In this document: one piece after another, positions 7,427-10,665 of the stretch
Layout: each line of letters opens with the position of its first letter
Position numbering within the stretch: position 1 is the stretch's first letter
Origin: Escherichia coli
GTDB taxonomy: Bacteria > Pseudomonadota > Gammaproteobacteria > Enterobacterales > Enterobacteriaceae
Direction: 5' to 3' (one strand)
Length of the DNA stretch: 12,747 nt
NCBI RefSeq assembly: GCF_003334255.1
Contig: NZ_QOWU01000081.1
The notes under the pieces: model-generated
What the model was told of the DNA's origin: nothing
The model's database searches: none
Seen by the model: the letters and a program-made list of their open reading frames with translations, nothing else
Position numbers and translations under genes: made by a program

Positions 7427-7852
7427 TTAGTGCATCACCACAGCATTCCCTGCCGGGCCGCCGCGATTCATCTGGTCATACAAAACAACCGCTGACGCAA
7501 CAAAATCATCGACATCCTTCACCAGCCGATCCCTCCGTTCGACGATCTCACGGTAATATTCAGAACTGTGGCTGCGCATACGGGCCACCAGCAAAGGCGG
7601 CATCGCCTTTTCGATCGCCGGTAACAGAGCCTGCATTTTTTCAACAGCATCAGGGGTGTCTTTATCCAGCCAACGGAAAATTTTCTGGGTATTACGGGCC
7701 AGGGCTTCCGGATGGCTGTCGTCGTACAGTTCCGGGAACGTCATCCCCAGTTCGAAATAAGTCCGGGCTATTTCAGCTGCAGGAACTTTCTCACCATCAG
7801 GATATGCCCAGGCATTCATCGCCATGCGGATGTGCTCATGTTTGATTTTCAT
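7427..7852 (-). CDS. YdaT-like protein (Rac prophage ydaT family, proposed CII-like regulator), 141 aa
   Basis: Position immediately downstream of and overlapping the Cro-like gene; length and N-terminus (MKIKHEHI...) are consistent with YdaT as I recall it. ATG 7850-7852. Confidence 0.6.
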   Translation of the reverse strand: MKIKHEHIRMAMNAWAYPDGEKVPAAEIARTYFELGMTFPELYDDSHPEALARNTQKIFRWLDKDTPDAVEKMQALLPAIEKAMPPLLVARMRSHSSEYYREIVERRDRLVKDVDDFVASAVVLYDQMNRGGPAGNAVVMH

Positions 7853-8283: not shown

Positions 8284-8760
8284 ATGCTTAGTGGTAAAGA
8301 CTTAGGCCGAGCGATAGAGCAGGCCATTAACAAAAAAATTGCATCAGGAGCCGTCAAATCAAAGGCGGAAATCGCACGTCATTTCAAAGTCCAACCACCA
8401 TCAATCCATGACTGGATTAAGAAAGGTTCGATAAGTAAAGACAAACTTCCAGAACTATGGCGTTTCTTTTCTGATGTGGTTGGTCCAGAGCATTGGGGGC
8501 TTAACGAATACCCCATACCAACCCCATCCACTTCAGATACAAAAAGTGAACTTTTAGACATAAACAGCCTTTATCAAGCCGCCTCTGATGAAAAAAGAGC
8601 AATTGTGACTTTCCTCTTATCTGGAAATGCTACGGAGCCTGGTTGGGTTGATCATGACGTTCGCGCCTACATTGCCGCAATGGAAATGAAGGTAGCTAAC
8701 TATCTGAAAAATCAAGAATCAAAACGGAAAAGCCAGAACATCACCAAGACAGGAACTTAA
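8284..8760 (+). CDS. Prophage repressor, 158 aa (RacR-like by position and length); no LexA-type S24 autocleavage domain apparent
   Basis: N-terminal HTH-like region (KAEIARHFKVQPPSIHDWIKKG); divergent from the Cro-like gene; flanked on both sides by operator triplets. AGGAG lies 11 nt upstream of the ATG. Confidence 0.75.
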   Translation: MLSGKDLGRAIEQAINKKIASGAVKSKAEIARHFKVQPPSIHDWIKKGSISKDKLPELWRFFSDVVGPEHWGLNEYPIPTPSTSDTKSELLDINSLYQAASDEKRAIVTFLLSGNATEPGWVDHDVRAYIAAMEMKVANYLKNQESKRKSQNITKTGT

Positions 8761-8835: not shown

Positions 8836-8897
8836 TTAGGTTGCACCTAAATCATTAGGCATAGCCTATTGACAAACAATTAGGCATTACCTATAGT
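8836..8897 (+). promoter_or_regulatory. OL/PL-like region: three operator sites and a strong rightward sigma70 promoter for the early-left (dicB-type) operon
   Basis: Sites TTAGGT-TGC-ACCTAA (8836-8850), TTAGGC-ATA-GCCTAT (8855-8869, the exact reverse complement of the OR site at 8216-8230) and TTAGGC-ATT-ACCTAT (8880-8894). -35 TTGACA 8869-8874, 17-bp spacer, -10 TATAGT 8892-8897. Confidence 0.6.
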
Positions 8898-9075
8898 TTT
8901 CCCATACCAACCCATCCCATCCCACACAATACAGGGCAATACCTAGAGTTACCCGGCAGTGGTCAGGGATTAAGTAGCCAGCCCGAGGCGTAAGAACATG
9001 ACGGCAGGGTTCAACTTTAACTATGCAGCAGGTTTTTGTTCCGCTCCCCCGGCGTTAAGGGGAAATGAGGTCAGC

Positions 9076-9228
9076 ATGGATACTATCGAGCTTGGCAACA
9101 GCGAATCTCTGGTATGTGGAGTATTCCCCAACCTGGACGGCACGTTTACCGCGATGACGTATACCAGAAGCAAAACGTTTAAAACGGAAGCTGGCGCGCG
9201 TCGCTGGTTAGCAAGAAACTCTGACTGA
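9076..9228 (+). CDS. Small early-left protein, 50 aa (YdaF/YdfA-like by position); the ORF could start at 8998 (76 aa)
   Basis: ATG 9076 preceded by GAGG at 5-nt spacing. Product MDTIELGNSESLVCGVFPNLDGTFTAMTYTRSKTFKTEAGARRWLARNSD. Confidence 0.5.
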   Translation: MDTIELGNSESLVCGVFPNLDGTFTAMTYTRSKTFKTEAGARRWLARNSD

Positions 9229-9302
9229 TGAAGGTTAGTAATTAAAGAGTTCTCCACAGGCGAAGTGGAATACGTTCGCCGGACACGGGTAAGCATTCGG
9301 CA

Positions 9303-9342
9303 TGCTCTTTAACAATCTGGGTATTCCTAACCACAAAGGAAT
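9303..9342 (+). promoter_or_regulatory. rrn-type boxA (TGCTCTTTAACAA) followed by a stem-loop: candidate nut-like or Nus-factor-dependent antitermination site in the early-left transcript
   Basis: Exact 13-nt match to the rrn boxA consensus as I recall it, at 9303-9315; hairpin ATTCC-(10 nt)-GGAAT at 9323-9342, 7 nt downstream; about 400 nt downstream of the PL-like promoter. No N-like protein identified. Confidence 0.4.
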
Positions 9343-9773
9343 CGCATCAATTTGGATTTTGCAGACAGTTTCTCTTGTTGTTCTACGGAGATTCCTATTT
9401 TGATCTGGGTTTTTAAGATTGCGATATCTTTAAGCGACGACCAAATATTATCATCTGTTTTTTCCAGGAGCTTTAACTGCATTTTCAATTCCGAATCGGA
9501 ATATTTTTCTGCATCATCATAAAACTGCAGATATTCTGCGGATTTTCTCATTGCGTTACCTGACTTTTGTCCGAATCCGTAAATCGTTTGAACGGTTGCT
9601 ATCACAACAATGAGAACTCCAGAAACTTCAGGAATAAATCCACCAATGACAGATGAACCGAGGATAATACTCACCACTGAGAAAAGTTTATCGAGACGAC
9701 CAGTCGCTACAGAGAATAGTTGTTCAAGAAAATAACCATATAAAACCCTGTCAAGAATATCATCCCGGTCCAT
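9327..9773 (-). CDS. Two-transmembrane-helix membrane protein, 148 aa, putative superinfection-exclusion protein (SieB-like by position and topology)
   Basis: ATG 9771-9773 preceded by AGGTGA. Hydrophobic segments LFSVVSIILGSSVIGGFIP and VSGVLIVVIATVQTIYGF followed by a helical charged domain. Transcribed opposite to the early-left operon, as sieB is in Rac. The gene looks AT-rich relative to its neighbours. Confidence 0.5.
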   Translation of the reverse strand: MDRDDILDRVLYGYFLEQLFSVATGRLDKLFSVVSIILGSSVIGGFIPEVSGVLIVVIATVQTIYGFGQKSGNAMRKSAEYLQFYDDAEKYSDSELKMQLKLLEKTDDNIWSSLKDIAILKTQIKIGISVEQQEKLSAKSKLMRFLCG

Positions 9774-9832
9774 ATATCATCACCTGCTTGTTTGATTGTT
9801 GCTGTTCCCCCTCTCCTCTGAAGGAGCTGGAG

Positions 9833-10021
9833 ATGGTTTTGGTCGAATGTTTTTCTCAGGTATATGTTTCCTGGTATTCGGAATGTCCGCCCTGTCCGCA
9901 GGCTTACCAGTACCTGAACAATTCTTTTGAACCACCATATAAAACACCTTCCTGTTGTTGGGGATATCCAGATTATACAGATTTCCTGTTATTGGGGAAT
10001 GACGGAAACCACCTCGCCTGA
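9833..10021 (+). CDS. Small Cys-rich protein, 62 aa (5 Cys; Kil/YdfC-position gene); the ORF may start at 9788 (77 aa)
   Basis: ATG 9833 preceded by AAGGAG at 6-nt spacing. Product MVLVECFSQVYVSWYSECPPCPQAYQYLNNSFEPPYKTPSCCWGYPDYTDFLLLGNDGNHLA. Could be spurious. Confidence 0.4.
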   Translation: MVLVECFSQVYVSWYSECPPCPQAYQYLNNSFEPPYKTPSCCWGYPDYTDFLLLGNDGNHLA

Positions 10022-10236
10022 CGTGGTTAAAAGCAGGCACACAACACGAAAGCGCACGGCGAGATTCCTTTGCATATAAGGCTTGTCGTTAAATTTCTTC
10101 GACCGTGCACTTCCGGTTGTGGCAGTCCGCGAAATGGCGCGGCGGTAAGTATGGCTGGGGCTTCCTCCATTGCTCCAGAAAATGCACCGGGTCGTCAGGT
10201 TGACCATACGCTTAAGTGACAGCCCCGCCACAATAC

Positions 10237-10294
10237 CCATGTGTAGTATTTGGTGGCATCAGTTCTACTCCGTGACTGCTCTGCCACCCTTTTT
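10237..10294 (+). ncRNA. dicF: DicF-like small RNA (cell-division inhibitory sRNA of the dicB operon)
   Basis: TTTGGTGGCATCAGTTCTACTCCGTGACTGCTCTGCCACCC followed by TTTTT matches my recollection of E. coli DicF (TTTGGCGGTATCAGTTTTACTCCGTGACTGCTCTGCCGCCC) with 4 substitutions, two of them compensatory in the terminator stem (GGTGGCA/TGCCACC at 10252-10258 and 10282-10288). The 5'-most ~12 nt differ. Immediately upstream of dicB. Confidence 0.8.
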
Positions 10295-10297
10295 AAA

Positions 10298-10459
10298 GTG
10301 AATTTTGTGATGCGGTGAATGCGGCTATGCGCACGCGGAACAGTTAAAACCGTAAAGTGGTCTTTTACGGGGCGTAACGGGCATCCTTCTGTATTCCGGC
10401 GTTAATTGTTAACTGGTTAACGTCACCTGGAGGCACCAGGCACCGCATCACAAAATTCA
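10298..10459 (+). repeat. 19-bp perfect inverted repeat (10298-10316 and 10441-10459) enclosing 124 bp between dicF and dicB; likely a long-range RNA stem serving as a processing site
   Basis: TGAATTTTGTGATGCGGTG ... CACCGCATCACAAAATTCA. An internal hairpin CCGTAAA-GTGGTCT-TTTACGG lies at about 10350-10370. Confidence 0.7.
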
Positions 10460-10476: not shown

Positions 10477-10665
10477 ATGGAAACGTTATTACCAAACGTT
10501 AATACGTCTGAAGGTTGTTTTGATATTGGTGTTCTGCTCAGTAACCGGGAGTTTACGGAAGATGCCATTAAGATGAGAAAATATGAACCTTATCTTCTCA
10601 ATGATAATTCCATACTTTCCAGAATTGCCCTTCTTGAACTTGGTATTATCGGAGAACAGCAGTGA
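10477..10665 (+). CDS. dicB: DicB-like cell-division inhibitor (MinC-activating), 62 aa
   Basis: N-terminus METLLPNVNTSEGCFDIGVLLSNREFTEDAI matches my recollection of Qin DicB (MKTLLPNVNTSEGCFEIGV...FTEDAI). GAGGA ribosome-binding site at 7-nt spacing. Follows dicF. Confidence 0.85.
   Translation: METLLPNVNTSEGCFDIGVLLSNREFTEDAIKMRKYEPYLLNDNSILSRIALLELGIIGEQQ

What the first reader, a model, noticed from the sequence alone, without database searches (positions are those of the whole stretch)
9327..9773. Opposite-strand, AT-rich two-helix membrane protein in the early-left operon (SieB-like moron)
The gene is transcribed against the early-left operon with its own ribosome-binding site and looks distinctly AT-rich. 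The product has two N-terminal transmembrane helices and a charged helical tail. Position and topology match sieB of Rac or lambda; the architecture would also fit a small membrane effector of the abortive-infection type.
Basis: partly seen in the sequence, partly recalled or inferred. Interest (0 to 1): 0.35.

Follow-up and report, generated by a model that had tools for sequence, protein, structure and literature searches.

The report
Prophage SLATT membrane protein with proline-rich partner
The gene is real and sits exactly where the Rac prophage keeps its exclusion gene sieB, but it is not SieB: it is a stand-alone SLATT-fold membrane protein, a kind known as the killing part of anti-phage systems, and it is always preceded by a conserved, unannotated proline-rich mini-gene.

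Summary
Window 9327-9773 (-) is a conserved 148-aa ORF under purifying selection, with 38% GC, its own Shine-Dalgarno and a two-helix membrane hairpin. It lies antisense to the racR-DUF1391-DicF-dicB early-left operon of a Rac-like E. coli prophage.

The position is exactly the sieB slot of Rac K-12. The protein is not a SieB homologue: there is no Pfam SieB match and no BLASTP similarity. A pLDDT-90 AlphaFold model superposes at TM about 0.9 on AlphaFold-database proteins annotated as SLATT (SMODS/SLOG-associating 2TM effector). Curated SLATT HMMs match only below threshold, and no sensor gene (cyclase, RT, TIR) lies next to it.

Its stop codon lies inside the main gene's Shine-Dalgarno. This small ORF (motif H-x-P-x3-I-R/K-x-PPPP) occurs in every independent lineage I examined (E. 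coli, Salmonella, Providencia, Leclercia, Chromobacterium, Vreelandella). Its dN/dS is 0.07-0.66, and no database annotates it.

Most likely this is a lysogen-expressed two-gene exclusion or abortive-infection cassette. No function has been tested.

The parts
9327..9773 (-). Main gene: 148-aa SLATT-fold inner-membrane protein (RefSeq WP_021565033.1, 'hypothetical protein')
   Evidence: ORF. PHROG 6315 E=4e-23. Family of 83 representative clusters. AF2 pLDDT 90.5. Foldseek TM about 0.9 to annotated SLATT proteins. dN/dS 0.08-0.09.
9633..9689 (-). Transmembrane helix 1 (residues about 29-47)
   Evidence: Kyte-Doolittle 19-residue windows above 1.6. Part of helix 3-44 in the model.
9570..9623 (-). 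Transmembrane helix 2 (residues about 51-68)
   Evidence: Kyte-Doolittle windows up to 2.08. Helix 48-65 in the model.
9780..9785 (-). Shine-Dalgarno AGGTGA of the main gene; it contains the TGA stop (9782-9780) of the upstream ORF
   Evidence: Read from the sequence. In 8 of 10 diverse loci I read the stop as abutting or overlapping the SD, from the sequences printed.
9780..9938 (-). Upstream ORF: 52-aa hydrophilic proline-rich peptide MVVQKNCSGTGKPADRADIPNTRKHIPEKNIRPKPSPAPSEERGNSNNQTSR, not annotated
   Evidence: Frame and start conserved. An equivalent ORF ends 6-18 nt before the main ATG in all independent lineages. dN/dS 0.07-0.66. Absent from RefSeq annotation, from PHROGs and from the protein collection.
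9819..9866 (-). Conserved core of the peptide (HIPEKNIRPKPSPAPS); relatives have H-x-P-x3-I-[RK]-x(1-3)-PPPP(PP)
   Evidence: Peptide alignment. In the fusion model, peptide residues 23-42 have pLDDT 76-78 and the linker is below 50.
9945..9952 (-). Shine-Dalgarno GGAAGGTG of the upstream ORF, 6 nt before its ATG (9938-9936)
   Evidence: Read from the sequence. AAGGAG is aligned at the same place in L004, L005 and L006.
9972..9977 (-). TATAAT, candidate -10 of the cassette's own promoter (weak -35)
   Evidence: Read from the sequence and conserved in the E. coli alleles. The consensus scan did not report it because the -35 is poor. Inferred, not shown.
10007..10028 (-). Conserved hairpin AACCAC-N10-GTGGTT upstream of the candidate promoter; an equivalent hairpin lies upstream of sieB in Rac K-12
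   Evidence: DNA alignment A2. Function unknown.

Best explanation
This is a two-gene moron cassette in the sieB slot of a Rac-like prophage, probably transcribed from its own promoter against the repressed early-left operon. The first gene encodes a 52-aa hydrophilic proline-rich peptide. The second encodes a 148-aa SLATT-fold protein with both ends in the cytoplasm: an N-terminal helix, a two-helix membrane hairpin and a four-helix cytoplasmic domain. Its Shine-Dalgarno contains the first gene's stop codon. The two are probably made together by translational coupling, and the peptide probably binds the cytoplasmic part of the SLATT protein. By analogy with SLATT effectors of CBASS-like and reverse-transcriptase defence systems, the membrane protein most likely damages or permeabilises the inner membrane when triggered. 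That would give the lysogen exclusion or abortive infection against other phages, which is the role SieB plays in the same slot. Shown here: gene reality, selection, fold, genomic position, and conservation and coding constraint of the small ORF. Inferred: promoter use, coupling, peptide binding, membrane damage and the anti-phage role.
For: Same slot as sieB. Always on the strand opposite to its neighbours, in lambdoid and P2-like prophages of seven genera. SLATT fold: TM 0.9, probability 1.00 to dozens of annotated SLATT and DUF4231 proteins. Repeated sub-threshold SLATT_4 and SLATT_1 HMM matches over the hairpin region. UniRef names relatives in the same 90%-identity clusters 'SLATT domain-containing protein'. 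SLATT is a required effector of the DRT10 defence system and is described as a predicted pore-forming toxin (bioRxiv 10.64898/2026.04.29.721553). Upstream ORF conserved with dN/dS below 1. Stop-in-SD geometry. The peptide core gains pLDDT 76-78 and the SLATT C-terminal blocks rise from 79 to 82-89 in the fusion model.
Against: No experiment on any member of the family was found. PADLOC has no model that matches. No sensor gene is adjacent, unlike characterised SLATT systems. The window allele has lost the consecutive prolines (RPKPSPAPS). Eight IMG/VR E. coli loci carry a deletion of about 110 nt that removes most of the small ORF while the main ORF stays intact, so the peptide is not indispensable for carrying the gene. 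The fusion model gives no PAE or contact list, so docking is only implied by pLDDT. The promoter has a poor -35 and was not found by the scan.
Confidence: 0.55

Rival explanations
1. It is a divergent member of the SieB superinfection-exclusion family.
For: Identical genomic slot and orientation, similar size, and a membrane protein.
Against: No Pfam SieB match for the target or for any of 56 relatives, while Rac SieB scores 1.7e-31. No BLASTP alignment at E<=100. The fold matches SLATT proteins instead.
Confidence: 0.02
2. It is a toxin-antitoxin or addiction module: the proline-rich peptide is a labile antitoxin and the SLATT protein the toxin, and it stabilises the prophage rather than excluding phages.
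For: Small upstream gene coupled to a putative membrane toxin. Implied peptide docking. The same prophage carries hok/sok and Rosmer modules.
Against: Natural alleles without most of the small ORF keep an intact main ORF. In those alleles, however, the remnant small ORF runs out of frame over the main start and may silence it. Addiction and defence roles are not exclusive.
Confidence: 0.15
3. The upstream ORF is only a cis-acting leader. Ribosome pausing at its polyproline tract, relieved by EF-P, sets how much SLATT protein is made, and the peptide has no function of its own.
For: PPPP to PPPPPPPP runs in most relatives. The stop codon abuts the downstream SD. A conserved amino-acid context before the prolines is also typical of arrest peptides (my own knowledge of SecM and polyproline context effects).
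Against: The window allele has no consecutive prolines. The distance from the last proline codon to the main ATG varies from about 24 to 47 nt. No significant RNA structure occurs at the junction (z from -1.25 to +1.67). The fusion model places the conserved core with pLDDT 76-78, which points to a trans role.
Confidence: 0.15
4. It is an entry-blocking superinfection-exclusion protein that interferes with DNA injection at the inner membrane, as HK97 gp15 or P22 SieA do, without killing the cell.
For: A small inner-membrane protein expressed from a prophage moron position. No sensor partner is present. The comparison with gp15 and SieA rests on my own knowledge.
Against: The fold is that of a family used as a suicide effector. 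There is no similarity to known entry blockers in PHROGs or Pfam.
Confidence: 0.1

Closest known systems
[quoted passage not shown]
   Same: Two-helix membrane hairpin flanked by cytoplasmic helices. Full-length structural superposition at TM about 0.9 on annotated SLATT proteins. Sub-threshold SLATT_4 and SLATT_1 HMM matches. UniRef already names close relatives SLATT.
   Different: Scores are far below the curated cut-offs (13-24 bits against 41-55). The gene stands alone, with no cyclase, SLOG, TIR or reverse-transcriptase partner. Instead it is coupled to a conserved proline-rich micro-ORF, which I did not find described for any SLATT system.
SieB of Rac, lambda and P22 (Pfam PF14163)
   Same: Same slot between the DUF1391 gene and the sRNA/FtsZ-inhibitor genes, same opposite-strand orientation, partly alignable upstream region, small membrane protein.
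   Different: No sequence or profile similarity, and a different fold family.
DRT10 (UG17) reverse transcriptase-SLATT defence system
   Same: Uses a SLATT protein as a membrane effector that is required for defence; it is also found on prophages and satellites.
   Different: DRT10 needs a reverse transcriptase and an ncRNA. Neither is present here.
Translationally coupled small-peptide and membrane-toxin modules and polyproline leader peptides (hok/mok; mgtP and mgtL type leaders)
   Same: A short upstream ORF whose translation is positioned to control a downstream membrane protein, and a proline-rich sequence. This comparison rests on my own knowledge.
   Different: Here the peptide sequence is conserved across genera, there is no antisense RNA or conserved mRNA fold at the junction, and a structure model suggests that the peptide binds the protein.

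Membership tests
SieB (PF14163) | Match to the SieB profile or sequence similarity to Rac, lambda or P22 SieB | tested here: not met
   No SieB match for the target or its 56 relatives. The positive control, Rac SieB, scores 1.7e-31. BLASTP finds nothing.
SieB (PF14163) | Location between the early-left regulatory genes and the kil-type gene, transcribed against pL | tested here: met
   Compare the maps.
SieB (PF14163) | Aborts the lytic growth of superinfecting phages | not testable with these tools
   Needs phage challenge experiments.
SLATT superfamily | Two transmembrane helices forming a hairpin, flanked by conserved cytoplasmic helices | tested here: met
   Hydropathy. AF2 model at pLDDT 90.5.
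SLATT superfamily | Structural similarity to recognised SLATT proteins | tested here: met
   Foldseek against AFDB50: E 1e-7 to 1e-5, TM 0.86-0.95, over about 148 columns, to many proteins annotated SLATT or DUF4231. No solved structure exists for comparison.
SLATT superfamily | Score above the curated threshold of a SLATT HMM (NCBIfam or Pfam) | tested here: not met
   Window protein against SLATT_4: 13.4 bits, cut-off 55. Family consensus: 19.3 bits. Best relative: 24.1 bits, E=2.7e-5. Pfam: none at E<=0.001.
SLATT superfamily | Genomic association with a nucleotide-signal or nucleic-acid-generating partner (SMODS/CD-NTase, SLOG, TIR, reverse transcriptase) | tested here: not met
   No such gene lies next to it in the eight contexts examined (window and L002-L006, L008, L009). 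The only conserved neighbour is the proline-rich ORF.
SLATT superfamily | Membrane permeabilisation or cell killing on activation | not testable with these tools
   Needs expression and membrane-potential assays.
Polyproline arrest or leader peptide | Three or more consecutive proline codons in the upstream ORF | tested here: not met
   The window allele reads RPKPSPAPS. Most relatives have PPPP to PPPPPPPP.
Polyproline arrest or leader peptide | An mRNA structure or fixed spacing that links a stalled ribosome to the downstream start | tested here: inconclusive
   No significant fold at the junction. Spacing is variable. The stop-in-SD arrangement is conserved, which fits coupling but not specifically arrest.
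Known anti-phage defence systems (PADLOC-DB 2.0) | Match to any model of a described or candidate defence protein | tested here: not met
   No family matches the main protein or the peptide.

The most novel reading that the evidence does not exclude
The proline-rich micro-protein and the stand-alone SLATT protein form a self-contained two-gene abortive-infection system. The peptide is both the lock on the pore and the sensor. In most alleles its synthesis must pass a polyproline tract, so it depends on EF-P and on translation capacity. When an infecting phage shuts down or hijacks host translation the peptide runs out, and the SLATT protein then opens and kills the cell.
Probability: 0.12. Interest if true: 0.75.

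Novelty: new variant of a known kind. Interest (0 to 1): 0.5.

Why it matters
SLATT proteins are widespread predicted suicide effectors, and how they are activated is an open question. A minimal version with no enzyme partner, only a conserved peptide of about 40-50 aa, could be a simple system for studying how a SLATT pore is held shut and released. It also shows that the sieB slot of Rac-like prophages is an exchangeable cargo site. Finally, standard annotation (PGAP, PHROGs) misses a conserved small gene that occurs in prophages of at least seven genera.

Tried and rejected
- **Pfam.** Scans of the protein, of 56 relatives and of the family consensus gave no family at E<=0.001.
- **PADLOC.** Nothing matched.
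- **SieB homology.** Rejected.
- **Related loci.** The first viral-contig scan, with the broad alignment, failed for lack of a conserved stretch. It worked with the close subset.
- **SD-sequestering hairpin.** None was found at the junction of the two ORFs.
- **Fusions.** I looked for natural fusions of the peptide to the SLATT protein among relatives with N-terminal extensions and found none. P0051 and P0083 are TPR-repeat false positives.
- **Longer start.** The GTG-started 86-aa version of the upstream ORF (9780-10040) was rejected. It would cover the conserved -10 and hairpin, and relatives start at the aligned ATG with a strong SD.
- **Literature.** Searches for the accession, for stand-alone SLATT in prophages and for polyproline upstream ORFs with toxins found nothing specific. 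The original SLATT paper could not be opened under the PMC id I tried.

Full report
**Where the window comes from.** The window is a Rac-like lambdoid prophage of E. coli. Window 9000-10300, the 1.3 kb around the finding, is 100% identical to prophages in several complete genomes, for example NZ_CP145698, where the prophage ends next to ompW.
- Minus strand, RefSeq annotation: ydaS-like and ydaT-like genes, an O-like gene and a DnaC-like replication gene.
- Plus strand: racR (8284-8760), a DUF1391 gene (9076-9228), dicB (10477-10665), a DUF1482 gene, an exonuclease, xis and int.
- Rfam places DicF at 10238-10289 (+).
- The early-left operon therefore runs on the plus strand, and the finding at 9327-9773 is antisense to it.

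- The ORF encodes 148 aa from an ATG. AGGTGA lies six bases upstream.
- GC is 38.0% against 47.8% for the window.
- Hydropathy gives two membrane segments at about 29-47 and 51-68, joined by a three-residue loop.
- The tail, residues 70-148, is helical and carries 14 basic and 12 acidic residues.
- It is a real gene. PHROG 6315 (function unknown) matches at 4e-23, and 83 representative clusters match at E<1e-3.
- dN/dS is 0.08-0.09 in the pairs where dS is not saturated.
- It occurs in 89 of 5426 complete E. coli genomes, full-length in 68, and is always annotated 'hypothetical protein'.

**It is not SieB, but it sits in the SieB slot.**
- In Rac K-12 the order is racR, ydaG, ydaF (DUF1391), sieB on the opposite strand, kilS sRNA, kilR.
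- In the window the order is racR, DUF1391, the target on the opposite strand, DicF sRNA, dicB.
- Part of the region upstream of the cassette, including a hairpin and a -10-like element, can be aligned with the region upstream of Rac sieB.
- Rac SieB matches Pfam SieB at 1.7e-31. The target and 56 relatives do not match it, and BLASTP between the two proteins finds nothing.
- The slot therefore looks like an exchangeable cargo site with a partly conserved flank.

**What the protein is.** An alignment of 56 relatives (25-91% identity; R26, G39, Y81, L84, D107, A118 and G148 nearly invariant) gave an AlphaFold model with mean pLDDT 90.5.
- Foldseek against AFDB50 returns first the protein's own family. 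[quoted passage not shown]
- Curated SLATT HMMs match repeatedly over the hairpin region but below threshold. SLATT_4 gives 13.4 bits for the window protein, 19.3 for the family consensus and 24.1 (E=2.7e-5) for a distant relative. SLATT_1 gives E=0.014.
- UniRef already names members of the same 90%-identity clusters 'SLATT domain-containing protein'.
- No solved structure resembles it.
- I conclude that it is a stand-alone SLATT-fold protein of a subfamily that current SLATT models capture poorly.

Directly upstream on the same strand lies a 52-aa ORF (9938-9780).
- It has a good Shine-Dalgarno (GGAAGGTG, six bases before the ATG). Its TGA stop lies inside the AGGTGA Shine-Dalgarno of the main gene.
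- An equivalent hydrophilic, proline-rich ORF of 21-56 aa ends 6-18 nt before the main ATG in every independent lineage I examined:
  - E. coli alleles, a Salmonella prophage and an unnamed NCBI assembly (L004);
  - Providencia phage PSTNGR2lys, an IMG/VR group 42-47% identical to the query, and the phage deposited as Elizabethkingia EKP1;
  - Leclercia, Chromobacterium and a P2-like prophage of Vreelandella;
  - two unassigned metagenomic contigs whose main protein is only about 26% identical.
- The shared core is H-x-P-x3-I-[RK]-x(1-3)-PPPP(PP), followed by a short basic tail.
- Codon comparisons give dN/dS of 0.07-0.66 with pS of 0.3-0.7, so the amino-acid sequence is under selection.
- In 8 of 10 diverse loci the stop codon abuts or overlaps the downstream Shine-Dalgarno (TAAGGAG, TGAGGT). 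I read this from the sequences printed. It is the usual signature of translational coupling.
- The small ORF is absent from the RefSeq annotation and matches no PHROG. The window's version is not in the 15-billion-protein collection.

**What the peptide might do.**
- No significant RNA structure was found at the junction of the two ORFs (z from -1.25 to +1.67).
- The distance from the polyproline tract to the main start is variable.
- The window allele has lost the consecutive prolines (RPKPSPAPS). This weakens a pure ribosome-stalling leader model for this locus.
- I also modelled a fusion: SLATT, a 30-residue Gly-Ser linker, then the peptide. The input alignment held 16 paired and 51 unpaired sequences.
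  - The conserved core of the peptide (residues 23-42) reaches pLDDT 76-78. The linker stays below 50.
  - The last two blocks of the SLATT protein rise from 79 to 89 and 82.
  - This suggests docking on the cytoplasmic domain. No PAE or contact list was available, so it is a hint only.
- Eight IMG/VR E. coli loci carry a deletion of about 110 nt between CAGGTG repeats. It removes most of the small ORF and leaves the main ORF intact. The peptide is therefore not strictly needed for carriage of the gene. In those alleles, however, the remnant small ORF reads out of frame across the main start and may reduce its translation.

**Context and likely role.** In eight contexts examined (the window and L002-L006, L008 and L009) the pair lies on the strand opposite to its neighbours, at cargo positions of lambdoid or P2-like prophages. 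None has a cyclase, SLOG, TIR or reverse-transcriptase gene beside it.
- A perfect TATAAT at 9977-9972 (-), with a weak -35, would give a leader of about 26 nt. The consensus scan did not report it.
- SLATT proteins are described as predicted pore-forming effectors. One is genetically required for DRT10 defence, and how SLATT is activated is stated there to be unknown. Another RT-SLATT pair sits on a P4-like satellite.
- I found no paper on this protein or on a stand-alone SLATT with a proline-rich partner.

**Verdict.** The SieB homology is refuted, and the looser 'small membrane abortive-infection effector' reading is supported by fold and position.
- The most likely explanation is a lysogen-expressed two-gene exclusion or abortive-infection cassette: a SLATT membrane effector plus a co-translated proline-rich peptide. 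Confidence is 0.55.
- Rivals: an addiction module (0.15), a purely cis-acting leader (0.15), an entry blocker (0.10) and SieB membership (0.02).
- The protein is a new member of a known superfamily. The invariant proline-rich partner, in place of a sensor enzyme, makes the cassette a new variant of a known kind.

Noticed in passing
window 1323-3057 (-): Two overlapping genes match the Rosmer anti-phage system in PADLOC: RmrA (1323-2429, E=6e-105; HTH plus HExxH peptidase) and RmrT (2407-3057, E=5e-25). RefSeq calls them 'helix-turn-helix domain-containing protein' and 'hypothetical protein'.
   Followed up: partly
window 3223-3548 (-): A hokD/sok type I toxin-antitoxin locus. Rfam sok lies at 3373-3548 (120 bits), and RefSeq annotates hokD on the minus strand inside ORF 3223-3435.
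   Followed up: partly
window 3616-4302 (-): The prophage carries a gene annotated as epoxyqueuosine reductase QueH, an unusual metabolic cargo next to the replication genes.
   Followed up: no
window 10238-10289 (+) and 10477-10665 (+): DicF sRNA (Rfam, 62 bits) and dicB lie downstream in the early-left operon, so a Rac-type immunity region is combined here with a Qin-type DicF/DicB module. Parts of window 9000-10300, which includes DicF, match in 4348 of 5426 E. coli genomes.
   Followed up: partly
L035, L036, L037, L043-L046, L049 (IMG/VR E. coli loci), region upstream of the main gene: A deletion allele: about 110 nt between two CAGGTG repeats is lost, leaving a 12-codon remnant of the small ORF that reads out of frame over the main start codon. 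The 148-aa ORF stays intact.
   Followed up: partly
E. coli O145 genomes, e.g. NZ_CP028379 1107691-1107947: Only query bases 358-614 are present (the small ORF plus the first 30 or so codons of the main gene), at 99.6% identity and with no annotation. This looks like a truncated remnant of the cassette.
   Followed up: no
window 10007-10028 (-) and L011 about 7560-7600: A hairpin (AACCAC-N10-GTGGTT) and adjacent bases upstream of the cassette are conserved in E. coli, Salmonella and Leclercia loci, and upstream of sieB in Rac K-12. Its function is unknown; it could be a terminator, an insulator or part of a promoter.
   Followed up: partly
window 8869-8897 (+): A near-consensus sigma-70 promoter-like site (TTGACA-17-TATAGT, 11 of 12) lies between racR and the DUF1391 gene. 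It may be the early-left promoter whose transcripts would run antisense through the cassette.
   Followed up: no
L003 (OM284015.1, 'Elizabethkingia phage EKP1'): The record's gene content (an antitermination protein, DUF4222, Rz, and the SLATT pair) looks like that of an enterobacterial lambdoid phage, which seems odd for a Flavobacteriia host.
   Followed up: no
AFDB entry A0A3Z6KJW9: A 153-aa 'Fels-2 prophage protein' of Salmonella Typhimurium is a structural relative at 26% identity, so a relative exists in a prophage family of a genetically tractable species.
   Followed up: no
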